From assembly GCF_009914755.1 (NCBI RefSeq), contig NC_060930.1: DNA of 64,000 nt; one strand, 5' to 3'. This document shows, piece after piece, positions 8,127 to 12,697 of the stretch. How positions within the stretch are numbered: position 1 is the stretch's first letter; each line of letters opens with the position of its first letter. The notes under the pieces were generated by a model. That model did not search any database, had not been told where the DNA came from, and saw only the letters and a program-made list of their open reading frames with translations. The translations under genes were made by a program, and so were the position numbers. This stretch comes from the human T2T-CHM13v2.0 reference genome, Homo sapiens.

Positions 8127-10195
8127 CTATAAAAGTACAGTATAAAAATCACTATTCTTCCAGGAAGGACTGTTCATTCTTCTTTGTCAAGTGAGATTCT
8201 CGCTCTGCATGGTAATTGAAAATGAGTAGCACATATGACATGATCATATAACAAAATCCACACTAATAAATTCCCCAATTACTGTGCCAGTTCTAGGATT
8301 CACCAAAAACTCCATGATAGAAGGAGTAGCCTGGGATGGTTTTTCAGAATGCCCCCCCGCCCCGCCACACAGGGGAACACCTTATCTACGAGGTTTTACT
8401 GTCTCTTTAACCGTCACTACTATCAGCTACTGAGGGAGGAAAAGAAATACTAGCTTAAAGCTGTTGGCAGAATTCCTCTGAAATAGAATTGTCTTTGCTT
8501 TTTAGCTAAACCTTTGATAAGACATATTGACAAAGAGCCTTTTGTACATGGCTGAACAGGGTGCTAGAGAGACAAAATATATTGCTTTCATAATTAAGTA
8601 AATAAATTCTGCCTGAAAGACACTTAGGGACCGGGAGGTGCTGGAGAAAGAATAAAGGAGACAGAGAAGGCTGGAGTGGCGGAGAAACTGGCCAGCGAGA
8701 CCTTCCCAGTGATTGGCCATTGCAGAGACTTTTAGGATGAGGGATGTCTAAAATCCAGGCCCCTGCCATCAACCTCATGAAACGTCTCTGTAACTGCCTC
8801 CACCATAGGTGAATAAGGCTTCAGGAAACCATGGAGAAAGGGTCATGTACCATGCTGGGTCAGCTAAGCATTGAAAGGATTTAGCTGCAAGAGGTGAGAT
8901 GCCACAGATGCATCACTTGTTGGAAATAAGGAAACTCAGTGTTGTGAGGATTTCATCAGTACATGAAAGTGCTTAGAACAATGCTTGGCACAAAGTGAAT
9001 GCTCTTCAGCTGTCAGCCTGGGATCCAGATGGCTGTTCTGCGAGCTATCCTGTGGTGGGAGGGATTGTGGCATTAGAGGGCCATTTATTGGCTATGTCCC
9101 CTTGGAGACATTGATTTGACTGTAAATTTTTATTTTCTTACCTGGAAAATAGGTATAATAATAATAACTAGCTCTTAAGTTTGGGATGAAATTAACTGAG
9201 ATAATATATGAATTTAAAAGCACCGCACATATGCTGGCTAATAAATCAATTTAAATTCCCTAGCCTGGTTCTTTAATCCTAGATTAGTGATCTGGATAGC
9301 TAAATGCAAATTAATAAATAAGAAACAAAAGGTACAATAGCATGCATAGAGTAAATTCTCAACCAATACTGGCTGAAATAAACTGTTATGGCGCTTGAAT
9401 TTATATGAAAACACAAACAGAGTTTCAGACTACCAAGCAGCATAGTATTAGTGGTATTTCTTTACCTACATGACTTTTCATTTCCATCAATTAATGAACC
9501 ATGAGTAGTTGTTGCTTATGTTTGACTCCTGTGGAAATACAGCACCTTCCACAGTCACCATTTCACTGTGATACAGATTAAGGCATTTCAAAAAATTGAA
9601 AGTCTGCTCTGGTAGGTCAAAGTATCATTTTTCTAATATTCTTAAGCAGAAATTGTCACAGTATTTACAGGACTATGTCTGTACACAGTGATGATTTGGG
9701 TTTTAGATGCTTAGTGATTTGTAATGAAACTTGACAATCATAAAAATACTTAACCTTGGTAATTCTCCTCTAATATTGATTATAGTTGTCCTTCCTTAAT
9801 AACTAAACTCAAGAAATGGATGTCTACCCGTCTAGAAGGACAGAGATCAATTCTTTCTTTCTTCCCCCTGCACTCACAGCAATTTCCTCCCTCACTCTAG
9901 TGTTCATTTGTACCTTCACAGTCACTGATACTCCAAATATCTCTGGGCACTTTTTTCCCTAATATCATCTCTACAAGATCCTAAATCCTGGAACAAAGTC
10001 ATTTTGACTGAAGTTTTACATGTTCTGATTTTTCATATTGTATTTCTAAATTCTTGAGAACAAGACAGTATCAAATAGAGAGTACTGTTCCCTATAGCTC
10101 AGTGCATCTCAAACTGTAGGTCATAACTGACCCATTAGTGAATGGTGAAGTCAATGCAGTGAGAATTGTCATCAACTCTTTGTAAAACAGGATTA

Positions 10196-10507
10196 GGCCG
10201 GGCGTGGTGGCTCACGCCTGTAATCCCAGCACTTTGGGAGGCTGAGGCGGGCGGATCACAAGGTCAAGAGATCAAGACCATCCTGGCCAACATGATGAAA
10301 CCCCGTCTCTATTAAAAGTACAAAAATTAGCTGGGCGTAGTGGCGCACGCCTGTAATCCCAGCTACTCGGGAGGCTGAGGCAGGAGAATCGCTTGAACCC
10401 GGGAGGCAGAGGTTGCAGTGAGCCGGGATTGTGCCACTGCACTCCAGCCTGGCGACAGGGCGGGACTCCATCTCAAAAAAAAAAAAACAAAAAAAAACAA
10501 AAAAAAA
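10196..10507 (+). mobile_element. Alu (Sc/Y-like)
   Basis: Full dimer; TSD aaaacaggatta. Confidence 0.92.
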
Positions 10508-10725
10508 CAGGATTAAAAAATATATACAGTACAACATATAGAGCCAGGGTAAATACTGTTTCATAAAATATCATACAAAACAGAGAAATATGAATGAGGG
10601 CCAGGCATAGTAGCTCACACCTCTAATCCTAGCACTTTAGGAAGCTGAGGGGGGAGGATTGCTTGAGCCCACGAGTTCAAGACCAGTCTGGGCAACACAG
10701 AGAGACCTTGTGTCTACACTTTTTT

Positions 10726-11361
10726 AAAAAATAAAAGTGTGCTTTATTATGAAGAAAATTTAAATATAACCAACAATACTGAAAATAATGTAAATGGCAT
10801 TTATAGCCTTGGTCAAAATTCTTTATTAAACAGGCATTTGTTTGCTGTTCCATGAATAGTTAACAATTAGTTTATGCAACAAAATAGGTAACTTGAAAAA
10901 GTGAGTAAGAATACAGAATTATGAACCAGGAATTGGGTTCTTTTGTGTTTTTTCTTAACAGACACGGCTTTTAAAATAAAATCTGAAATATAAAGCAAGT
11001 CATCTTCATGTAGAGAGCTCTCTTTTCCTACAAGGAGGTTTTGCAAAAATGTTAAACAGTGTTCTAAAATGTGGCTGAAGTTATGCTTTACATACTTTAA
11101 CTTCTTATATATACATTATCCAATTAACATAACCACATTTTCATATACAAGTGGGACCATAAACATTAATAAGACAACACTACAACACTAGCACAGAGTA
11201 ATTTTACCCATGTATATATTTTCATTTGAAACCTGTTTCCCAAAATGAAATCACTCATTTAAAAGCAAACAACTGGTTGGAATTAATGTCTCTAGACATG
11301 GGTCATGGGGCCTAGAAATCATGTAAGAGTATATTGCTTTGGTTGAATATAATTAATCTCA
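10726..11361 (-). pseudogene. 5'-truncated processed retrocopy of an mRNA 3' UTR (parent uncertain; tentatively MBNL2)
   Basis: Non-repeat AT-rich sequence between 15-bp direct repeats tgtctacactttttt (10711-10725, 11362-11376). AATAAA on the minus strand at 10743-10748 and 10822-10827, the former ~17 nt from the insert end. Confidence 0.7.
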
Positions 11362-11376
11362 TGTCTACACTTTTTT

Positions 11377-11692
11377 GTTTTGTTTTGTTTTTTGAGACAG
11401 AATCTGGCTGTGTCTCCCAGGCTGGAGTGCAGTGGCGTGATCTCAGCTCACTGCAACCTCTGCCTCCCGGGCTCAAGCCATCCTCCCACCTCAGCCTCCC
11501 GAGGAGCTGGTGGTATTACAAGTGCACGTCACCACGCCCAGCTAATTTTTTTTTTTTTTTTTTTTTTTTTTGGTAGAGATGGGATTTTGCCATGTTGCCC
11601 AGGCTGGTCTTTAACTCCTGAGCTCAAGCGATTTCGCCTGCCTTGGCCTCCTAAAGTGCTAGGATTACAGGCATGAGCCACTATGCCCAGCC
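11377..11692 (-). mobile_element. AluJ (antisense to the host Alu)
   Basis: Dimer with T-rich tail at left and expanded central T run. Confidence 0.88.
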
Positions 11693-11869
11693 CTACCAAA
11701 AAAAAAAAAAAAAATAGCTGGGCATGGTGGTATATGCGGGTAGTCAGTTAACTAGGAAGATGGCTTGAGCCCAGGAGGTTAAGGCTGCGGTGAGCTATGA
11801 CTACACCACTGCATTCCAGCCTGGGCAGAAGAATGAGACCCTGTCTTAAAAAAATAAAAAAAGAAGAAG

Positions 11870-12170
11870 GGCCGGGTGCGGTGGCCCACGCCTGTAATCC
11901 CACCACTTTAGGAGGCTGAGGCGGGTGGATTGCCTGAGATCAGAAGTTCAAGACCAGCCTGGCCAACATAGTGAAACCCTGTCTCTACTAAAAATACAAA
12001 AAATTAGCTGGGCGTGGTGGTGGGCGCCTGTAATCCCAGCTACTCAGGAGGTTGAGGCAGGAAAATTGCTTGAACCCAGGAGGTGGAGGTTGCAGTGAGC
12101 TGAGATCGCGCCACTGCACTCCAGCCTGGGCAACAAGAGTGAAATTCCATCTCAAAAAAAAAAAAAAAGA
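11870..12170 (+). mobile_element. AluSx inserted in the AluJ tail
   Basis: Full dimer with A tail. Confidence 0.9.
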
Positions 12171-12697
12171 AAAGGAACAAATATGAATGAGTGCACTGGG
12201 TTGTGATATAAAATGTATTTCTTATTGTAATTCTGTTTTTAAAAAATGGAAAATCTGGTAGGTCCTTCAGAGATGTAACCTTAATTTTTCAGAATGTGAA
12301 AACAAGAAACCCTAAAAGCTGAAATGCCTCGCCTCGATCTGTTTCACGGGGAAGTGGTGACTGTGGAAGGTGATGTATTTCCACAGGAGTCAAAACAGCG
12401 CCCGGGATTGGAGTGAAGCAGCTCCCGCTGGGGTATGTGCCTCTGACCATGGGACATATGATGTGTGGAAAACAAAACAGTTTTAAATTTAAGGTTCGGC
12501 CCAGATTTTGCCTGTATCAAAGACCAGACACTAGAATACATGACCCCTGGCAGACACGGGCATCCTGCTGCGGCAAGGCCGGCGCTCTAGGCCTCCCTTC
12601 ATGCTCTCCTGATCTGCATGCGATGCTTAATACAAGACAGCACCAGTGGTCTCTAAGAGCCATTCCTCAAAACGGAAAAATTAACAAAATAACTTAC

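What the first reader, a model, noticed from the sequence alone, without database searches (positions are those of the whole stretch)
9521..12394. Non-Alu ~70-bp inverted repeat pair bracketing most of intron 5
Seen: 9521-9560 (tttgactcctgtggaaatacagcaccttccacagtcacca) is the reverse complement of 12355-12394 at 39/40 positions. Similarity extends over 9521-9590 vs 12320-12394 with a few mismatches and a ~5-bp gap. I do not recognise it as a known repeat. The arms enclose ~2.7 kb, including the entire Alu/retrocopy stack and its AATAAA signals; one arm is ~300 nt downstream of the exon 5 donor. In the ELOVL2 sense RNA several mismatches are A-C pairs, which ADAR prefers. Inference: a long-range RNA bridge that loops out intronic insertions, or the scar of an old staggered-break inversion.
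Basis: partly seen in the sequence, partly recalled or inferred. Interest (0 to 1): 0.72.

Follow-up and report, generated by a model that had tools for sequence, protein, structure and literature searches.

The report
Two-copy inverted duplication in ELOVL2 intron
A 70-base stretch of ELOVL2 intron 5 occurs twice in opposite orientation and nowhere else in the human genome, most likely an old local copying accident whose two copies could pair in the RNA but have no shown function.

Summary
Window 9521-9590 is the reverse complement of 12320-12394: 39 of 40 at the outer end, 64 nt at 89% ungapped, 6 substitutions and 2 indels over 70 aligned sites.

It is not an interspersed repeat. Two BLAST searches and two mismatch-tolerant pattern searches of the 3.1-Gb genome found only these two copies. 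The 605-nt non-Alu interior is single-copy. No target-site duplication flanks the arms.

The 33 nt that abut the left arm match, in direct orientation, a piece 55 nt from the right arm (empirical p about 0.003-0.01). This favours a multi-step template-switch copy of the right locus, which is richer in GC and CpG, over a staggered-break inversion.

Removing two TSD-bounded insertions (one Alu; one older Alu split by another Alu and a retrocopy, with a fourth Alu in its tail) shrinks the spacer from 2729 to 811 nt.

The arms are predicted to pair in the sense RNA (about -100 kcal/mol; outer 40 nt P about 0.96). Inverted Alu pairs inside the loop are about four times stronger.

Conservation, RNA contacts, editing and splicing effects could not be tested. 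Verdict: real, locus-specific and probably neutral. Interest is low.

The parts
9521..9590 (+). Left arm of the inverted pair. In the ELOVL2 pre-mRNA it is the downstream arm. Likely the derived copy: 0 CpG, in an AT-rich context.
12320..12394 (-). Right arm, the upstream arm in the pre-mRNA, 303 nt after the exon 5 donor. Likely the source: 3 CpG, GC 49%, continuous with a CpG-retaining patch that reaches the exon.
9586..9618 (+). Segment X. It abuts and overlaps the inner end of the left arm by 5 nt and matches 12237-12265 in direct orientation with a 5-nt gap.
   Evidence: E 0.041 for the first 21 nt; score 16; 10 of 3000 random 40-mers reach it; 10 of 1000 A6-containing 40-mers
12237..12265 (+). 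Segment X', the putative second source piece, 55 nt from the inner end of the right arm.
9529..9554 (.). Internal 8-bp palindrome with a 10-nt loop inside the left arm. The same palindrome is at 12361-12386 in the right arm. It forms a small local hairpin in either transcript sense.
10196..10505 (+). Alu A, full length, flanked by the 12-nt TSD aaaacaggatta.
10597..10720 (+). Left monomer of an older Alu B. Its right part is 11694-11867. Its TSD aaatatgaatgag is at 10584-10596 and 12180-12192.
10726..11362 (-). 5'-truncated retrocopy, same sense as ELOVL2, flanked by the repeat tgtctacactttttt. It carries both sense-strand AATAAA hexamers of the loop. Its parent lies on another chromosome.
11377..11693 (-). 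Alu C, in reverse orientation, inserted into Alu B.
11868..12175 (+). Alu D, full length, inserted into the tail of Alu B.

Best explanation
This is a locus-specific micro inverted duplication. A patch of about 100 nt (9519-9618) was most likely written into intron 5 by a replication or repair event with serial template switches. The event first copied 12394-12320 in reverse complement, then jumped to 12237-12265 and copied it in direct orientation. It happened tens of millions of years ago. The spacer was possibly about 0.8 kb at the time and now measures 2.7 kb because of Alu and retrocopy insertions. In the ELOVL2 pre-mRNA the two arms are predicted to form an imperfect duplex of about 64-70 bp that closes a 2.7-kb loop. 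I read this as a passive by-product that may be an ADAR substrate, not a selected element. Shown: the pair, its uniqueness, the absence of a TSD, the nested insertions and the predicted pairing. Inferred: the template-switch mechanism, the direction (right locus as source), the age and the neutrality.
For: Only two copies were found in 3.1 Gb: BLAST at E<=0.001 (left-arm query) and at E<=10 (right-arm query). The outer-core 26-mer at up to 3 mismatches gave the 2 arms plus 1 chr11 hit, and the reversed control pattern also gave 1 hit. The chr11 similarity does not extend beyond about 27 nt. The inner 30-mer at up to 3 mismatches gave the 2 arms only, with 0 control hits. The 605-nt interior is single-copy. 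There is no TSD: 0-3 matches for flank lengths 2-12. A direct match abuts the left arm (10 of 3000 random 40-mers reach its score), with a TTTCA/TTTTA overlap at the junction. The pieces are contiguous in the left patch but 55 nt apart at the right locus, which points to the left patch as the copy. The right arm keeps 3 CpG (o/e 0.7) in a GC 49% patch, whereas the left arm has 0 CpG. The arms' K2P is 0.091 (6 of 70; 95% CI 3.2-17.7%) against 0.036 for the retrocopy and its parent (22 of 624). Non-CpG substitutions are not unevenly spread (1 of 40 vs 3 of 30, p 0.31), so nothing points to a constrained block. Template switching as a source of new inverted repeats and RNA stems in the human genome is described in PMC5453318 (passages read).
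Against: The second (direct) match is short and A-rich. Its empirical p is only 0.003-0.01, so the multi-step reading could rest on chance. PMC5453318 models short-range single switch-and-return events and states that it does not cover long-range or multi-round switching. A source at least 0.8 kb away is therefore outside what that paper documents. No outgroup genome was available, so neither the ancestral state nor the direction of copying is shown. When indels are counted as events, the outer 40 nt are better preserved than the inner part (1 of 40 vs 7 of 32, p 0.019). That could reflect constraint or gene conversion rather than CpG decay. Neutrality is assumed, not tested.
Confidence: 0.55

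Rival explanations
1. Functional long-range RNA bridge. The arms pair in the pre-mRNA. This loops out the Alu/retrocopy stack, hides its poly(A) signals and cryptic splice sites, and shortens the effective intron. ADAR would edit the A-C mismatches.
For: Duplex energy is -102.5 kcal/mol in the sense RNA. In the MFE of a 3074-nt sense RNA, 58 of 75 right-arm bases pair with the left arm. In the ensemble of a 2974-nt RNA the outer 40 nt pair with mean P 0.96. Both sense AATAAA hexamers of the retrocopy lie inside the loop. Intronic complementary pairs within one intron are a described class, and suppression of intronic polyadenylation by such structures has been proposed as a hypothesis (PMC8052449, passages read).
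Against: Prediction alone is expected for any such repeat. Both certain transitions between the arms give A-C mismatches in the sense RNA and G-U wobbles in the antisense RNA. The unused strand therefore pairs better (-110.6 vs -102.5), which is the opposite of what selection on the sense RNA would favour, though the numbers are tiny. Inverted Alu pairs inside the loop are about 4 times stronger (-440 to -449) and lie closer together. Three further poly(A) hexamers lie in the intron outside the loop. ELOVL2 is not named in the main texts of PMC8052449 or PMC10691357, and their full catalogues were not readable here. The search for ELOVL2 + A-to-I + intron listed 4 papers, none about this by title or abstract start.
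Confidence: 0.1
2. Scar of an inversion with a staggered break. The segment between the arms was inverted, and fill-in of a staggered cut duplicated about 70 nt in inverted orientation at its two ends.
For: An inverted duplicate sits exactly at the two ends of a segment, is unique in the genome and has no TSD.
Against: The second inverted pair that staggered cuts at both breakpoints would produce was not found between the flanks (no minus-strand hit better than E 2.1 apart from the arms). The only extra similarity is in direct orientation, which this model does not predict. A single staggered break remains possible.
Confidence: 0.15
3. Terminal inverted repeats of an ancient, very low-copy DNA transposon, about 0.95 kb before the Alu insertions.
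For: Arms of about 70 nt face inward around about 0.8 kb of non-Alu sequence.
Against: There is no TSD of 2-12 nt. No other copy of the arms or of the interior was found in the genome. The searches score only the best candidates, so copies below roughly 75-80% identity could be missed.
Confidence: 0.05
4. Two fragments of a common interspersed repeat that happen to lie in opposite orientation.
For: None found.
Against: There are two copies genome-wide. No Rfam hit falls in the arms: all 18 hits in 9300-12700 lie in the Alus. In the hub's annotation of NCBI's repeat-masked stretches, neither arm is in a listed stretch of 100 nt or more.
Confidence: 0.02

Closest known systems
Template-switch mutations that create inverted repeats and RNA stems (four-point model, PMC5453318; related titles PMC8794818 and PMC10710096 seen only in the search listing)
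   Same: A reverse-complement copy of nearby sequence is written into the same locus and creates a new inverted repeat that can fold in RNA. The junction shows a short overlap.
   Different: The events described there are short-range, with copied fragments of tens of bases within the replication fork, and single-step. Here the copied fragment is about 75 nt, the source lies at least 0.8 kb away, and a second, direct piece suggests more than one switch. That is closer to the FoSTeS/MMBIR or serial-slippage type, which the paper explicitly leaves out.
Pairs of conserved complementary regions (PCCRs) and RIC-seq-supported intronic long-range structures (PMC8052449, PMC10691357)
   Same: Two complementary intronic segments lie within one intron, have strongly negative hybridisation energy and enclose poly(A) signals.
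   Different: PCCRs are defined by evolutionary conservation of both sides. The PHRIC set is defined by RIC-seq reads. Neither could be checked for this pair, and ELOVL2 is not mentioned in either main text.
Inverted Alu pairs in introns (the usual long dsRNA and ADAR substrates)
   Same: Intramolecular dsRNA forms from inverted copies in one intron. Three such Alus sit inside this very loop.
   Different: The arms are not Alu, are unique in the genome, are 4-5 times shorter and lie 2.7 kb apart. Their predicted energy is about a quarter of that of the Alu pairs.
Non-autonomous DNA transposon with terminal inverted repeats (MITE-like)
   Same: Inward-facing inverted termini surround a short interior.
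   Different: There is no TSD and no other copy of the termini or the interior.

Membership tests
Common interspersed repeat / DNA transposon with TIRs | Multiple dispersed copies of the arms in the genome | tested here: not met
   Only the 2 arms were found by BLAST. Pattern searches gave 2 arms plus 1 chance-level hit, with 1 control hit, and 2 arms with 0 control hits. The tool scores only the best candidates, so very diverged copies are not excluded.
Common interspersed repeat / DNA transposon with TIRs | Target-site duplication directly outside the two termini | tested here: not met
   0-3 matching bases for flank lengths 2-12.
Common interspersed repeat / DNA transposon with TIRs | Interior sequence shared with other copies | tested here: not met
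   9591-10195 matches only itself at E<=10.
Template-switch / FoSTeS-MMBIR-type inverted duplication | Reverse-complement copy of nearby sequence from the same locus | tested here: met
Template-switch / FoSTeS-MMBIR-type inverted duplication | Patchwork of more than one source piece, with microhomology at the junctions | tested here: inconclusive
   A direct 33-nt match abuts the arm, p 0.003-0.01, with a 4-of-5 overlap (TTTCA/TTTTA) at the junction.
Template-switch / FoSTeS-MMBIR-type inverted duplication | Ancestral (outgroup) state lacks the copy while the source is present | not testable with these tools
   No primate or mammal genome is held. states that the genome has no relatives here.
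Staggered-break inversion | Inverted duplications at both breakpoints | tested here: not met
   There is no second inverted pair between the flanks. A single staggered break is not excluded.
Staggered-break inversion | Interior inverted relative to outgroups | not testable with these tools
   No outgroup genomes are available.
Functional long-range intronic RNA structure (PCCR / RNA bridge) | Stable complementarity in the transcribed sense | tested here: met
   -102.5 kcal/mol. The arms pair in the MFE and in the ensemble.
Functional long-range intronic RNA structure (PCCR / RNA bridge) | Both sides evolutionarily conserved, with compensatory substitutions | not testable with these tools
   No alignments are available. 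The catalogues of PMC8052449 sit on Zenodo and a track hub and were not readable.
Functional long-range intronic RNA structure (PCCR / RNA bridge) | Experimental RNA-RNA contact, or a splicing or polyadenylation effect | not testable with these tools
   No RIC-seq, PARIS, editing or minigene data are accessible. ELOVL2 is absent from the main texts.

The most novel reading that the evidence does not exclude
A primate-specific, template-switch-born RNA stem that was kept because it closes the Alu/retrocopy stack of ELOVL2 intron 5 into a loop. The loop would shield the retrocopy's two sense-strand AATAAA signals and Alu cryptic splice sites from the processing machinery. The two A-C mismatches (sense-strand A at window 9561 and 9567) would be preferred ADAR sites. 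The lead PUFA GWAS SNP rs2236212 may lie only tens of bases outside the upstream arm, but that mapping rests on a recalled offset and is unverified.
Probability: 0.07. Interest if true: 0.5.

Novelty: new member of a known kind. Interest (0 to 1): 0.2.

Why it matters
If the neutral reading is right, this is one more example of how local copying errors seed long-range complementarity in introns. It is a clean example, because the pair is unique in the genome and can be roughly dated against nested Alu and retrocopy insertions. It would matter more only if the stem proved to protect ELOVL2 transcripts from premature polyadenylation at retrocopy-borne signals. ELOVL2 is a key PUFA elongase with strong GWAS signals across this haplotype block. 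Nothing found here makes that likely.

Tried and rejected

(2) A sequence profile of the two arms could not be run against this genome. The copy-number question was therefore answered only by BLAST and pattern searches.

(3) An Rfam scan of 9300-12700 at E<=1 gave 18 hits, all Alu/SRP-type or Alu-derived miRNA families and none in the arms. A small-RNA gene reading was dropped.

(4) The chr11 hit of the core pattern aligns over only about 27 nt and is matched by a control hit. It was rejected as chance.

(5) A TSD search found none.

(6) A search for a second inverted pair, or for further pieces of the right locus around the left patch, found nothing below E 0.3 apart from segment X.

(7) The uneven spread of differences along the arms has p 0.077 for substitutions and p 0.019 with indels. 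It falls to p 0.31 once the CpG-linked changes are set aside, so it is not evidence of constraint.

(8) Literature. ELOVL2 + A-to-I + intron listed 4 papers, none relevant by title or abstract start. ELOVL2 is absent from the main texts of PMC8052449 and PMC10691357. PMC7694210 gives no position for rs2236212.

(9) Strand-skew analysis to detect an inversion was considered and not run, because about 800 nt gives no statistical power.
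Full report
**Observation**

The pair is real. The 40-mer at 9521-9560 recurs once, on the opposite strand at 12355-12394, with 1 mismatch. None of 100 dinucleotide shuffles of the window gave a match. The repeat finder reports arms 9521-9584 and 12331-12394, 64 nt, 89% complementary, 2746 nt apart. A gapped alignment carries the similarity to 9590 / 12320 with gaps of 1 and 4 nt. MAFFT places a 1-nt and a 5-nt gap and adds 'TG' on the outer side. Over 70 aligned sites there are 6 substitutions (2 transitions, 4 transversions), giving K2P 0.091.

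The spacer is 2729 nt. The right arm lies 303 nt after the exon 5 donor and the left arm 1394 nt before the exon 6 acceptor.

**Is it a known repeat?**

The window's own genome (3.1 Gb, 24 contigs) could be searched.
- A 121-nt query around the left arm (E<=0.001) and a 361-nt query around the right arm (E<=10) each found only themselves and the partner arm.
- The 26-nt outer core at up to 3 mismatches found the two arms plus one chr11 site with 3 mismatches. The reversed control pattern also found one site, and the chr11 similarity does not extend beyond about 27 nt.
- The 30-nt inner half at up to 3 mismatches found only the two arms, with 0 control hits.
- The 605-nt non-Alu interior next to the left arm is single-copy.
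- An Rfam scan of 9300-12700 gave 18 hits, all in the Alus.

One caveat applies. The genome tool scores only its best candidates, and no Dfam or RepeatMasker library was on hand, so copies below roughly 75-80% identity cannot be excluded.

**Anatomy of the enclosed segment**

- Alu A (10196-10505, + strand) has a clean 12-nt TSD.
- An older Alu B was inserted at the site aaatatgaatgag (copies at 10584-10596 and 12180-12192). It is now split into 10597-10720 and 11694-11867.
- Alu B is split by a reverse-oriented Alu C (11377-11693) and by a 637-nt retrocopy (10726-11362, on the ELOVL2 sense strand) flanked by tgtctacactttttt.
- Alu D (11868-12175, + strand) sits in Alu B's tail.
- The retrocopy matches a site on contig 7 at 94% by BLAST, with 22 substitutions in 624 aligned sites, K2P 0.036.
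- Removing the two TSD-bounded insertion complexes shrinks the spacer from 2729 to 811 nt.

**Origin**

A transposon with terminal inverted repeats is unlikely. There is no TSD (0-3 matches for flank lengths 2-12) and no other copy of the ends or the interior.

A staggered-break inversion predicts a second inverted pair between the opposite flanks, and none was found. What was found instead is a direct match. 9586-9618 overlaps the last 5 nt of the left arm and matches 12237-12265, which lies 55 nt from the inner end of the right arm. It was the second-best hit of the sensitive comparison (E 0.041 for its first 21 nt). In an empirical test, its gapped score of 16 was reached by 10 of 3000 random unmasked 40-mers of the window and by 10 of 1000 that contain an A6 run.

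This is suggestive, not decisive. If it is real, the left patch (about 9519-9618) is a contiguous mosaic of two pieces that are separate at the right locus, one inverted and one direct, joined at a TTTCA/TTTTA overlap. That is the signature of serial template switching in replication or repair, with the right locus as the source.

Composition agrees with this direction. The right arm has 3 CpG (o/e 0.7) and GC 49%, and is continuous with the CpG-retaining patch that reaches exon 5 (12395-12697: 10 CpG, o/e 0.54). The left arm and its 100-nt flanks have 0 CpG and GC 36%. Several arm differences sit at those CpGs.

PMC5453318 (passages read) documents template switching as a source of new inverted repeats and RNA stems in human. 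It explicitly leaves out long-range and multi-round events, so this case would be a larger, multi-step relative of what that paper describes.

**Age**

The arms' K2P is 0.091 (6 of 70; 95% CI of the raw proportion 3.2-17.7%), against 0.036 for the retrocopy and its parent. With a primate neutral rate of about 1e-9 per site per year (general knowledge, approximate), the arms date to very roughly 45 Myr, with a range of about 16-90 Myr. That is older than or similar to the retrocopy and falls in the era of Alu expansion. Whether the duplication preceded the Alu insertions cannot be told from nesting, because the arms lie outside all of them.

**RNA pairing**

- In the ELOVL2 sense RNA the arms hybridise at -102.5 kcal/mol, and in the antisense RNA at -110.6.
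- In the MFE of a 3074-nt sense RNA, 58 of 75 right-arm bases pair with the left arm.
- In the ensemble of a 2974-nt RNA the mean probability is 0.77, with 0.96 for the outer 40 nt and 0.54 for the inner 35 nt.
- Each arm alone folds into a small hairpin on its internal 8-bp palindrome (-17.6 and -22.3 kcal/mol in the sense RNA).
- The inverted Alu pairs inside the loop give -440 to -449 kcal/mol.

These are equilibrium predictions. Any repeat of this length and identity would give them, so they are not evidence of contact in cells.

The two certain transitions (9561 and 9567) make A-C mismatches in the sense RNA and G-U wobbles in the antisense RNA. This is why the non-transcribed sense pairs better. 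It gives no hint of selection for pairing in the pre-mRNA, though with so few events it proves nothing.

The outer 40 nt are better preserved than the inner 30 (1 vs 5 substitutions, p 0.077; with indels 1 of 40 vs 7 of 32, p 0.019). After the CpG-linked changes are set aside the contrast disappears (1 of 40 vs 3 of 30, p 0.31).

The loop encloses both sense-strand AATAAA hexamers of the retrocopy (10827, 10748). Three more poly(A) hexamers lie in the same intron outside the loop.

**Literature**

- Intron-internal complementary pairs, and the hypothesis that they could suppress intronic polyadenylation, are described in PMC8052449 (passages read).
- RIC-seq-based structures outside conserved blocks are described in PMC10691357 (passages read).
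- ELOVL2 occurs in neither main text, and the full catalogues (Zenodo, track hubs) could not be read.
- The search for ELOVL2 + A-to-I + intron listed 4 papers, none on this topic by title or abstract start.

I therefore found no description of this pair in print within these searches.

**Verdict**

The element is a genome-unique, old inverted micro-duplication within one intron. The most likely origin is a template-switch mosaic copied from the exon-proximal locus, later spread apart by retroelement insertions. It is predicted to form a stem in the RNA, but nothing shows that it is used. It is a new member of a known kind, and interest is low (0.2). The functional-bridge reading remains open at about 0.1. 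It would need primate alignments, RNA contact and editing data, and a minigene test.

Noticed in passing
window 31966-32591 and 37073-37699: A much larger and far younger inverted duplication lies in ELOVL2 intron 1: 486 nt at 100% plus an adjoining 143 nt at 99% complementary. The spacer of about 4.5 kb holds the SIAH3 pseudogene LOC100421248 (33143-33680). The 372-nt stretch of the arm beyond NCBI's listed masked stretch (32220-32591) has only these two copies in the genome, at 100% and 99%. This could be a recent inverted duplication, ongoing gene conversion, or the flanks of a polymorphic inversion. It deserves its own look.
   Followed up: partly
window 10726-11362; L007 (contig 7: 108476904-108477538, minus): A 5'-truncated retrocopy on the ELOVL2 sense strand, nested in an old Alu. 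It is 94% identical to a site on contig 7 (22 substitutions in 624 sites). An 84-nt, 89% match also lies on contig 8 (L008). The retrocopy carries two sense-strand AATAAA hexamers (10748, 10827). The parent gene was not identified.
   Followed up: partly
window about 12430-12470 (approximate): PMC6122697 lists the PUFA GWAS SNP rs2236212 at chr6:10,994,782. Using an hg38-to-T2T offset that I recalled rather than computed, this falls a few tens of bases outside the right arm, in the CpG-retaining patch. The mapping is unverified. The functional variant shown for this haplotype block is rs953413 in intron 1 (PMC7033636).
   Followed up: partly
window 9529-9554 and 12361-12386: Each arm contains an 8-bp perfect palindrome with a 10-nt loop. 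On either strand it reads as a polypyrimidine-CAG, acceptor-like motif. It forms the local hairpin in the single-arm folds. Its significance is unknown.
   Followed up: no
window 10584-12192: A four-layer nested insertion: old Alu B is split by reverse Alu C and the retrocopy, and Alu D sits in Alu B's tail. Intact TSDs allow the order of events to be read.
   Followed up: yes
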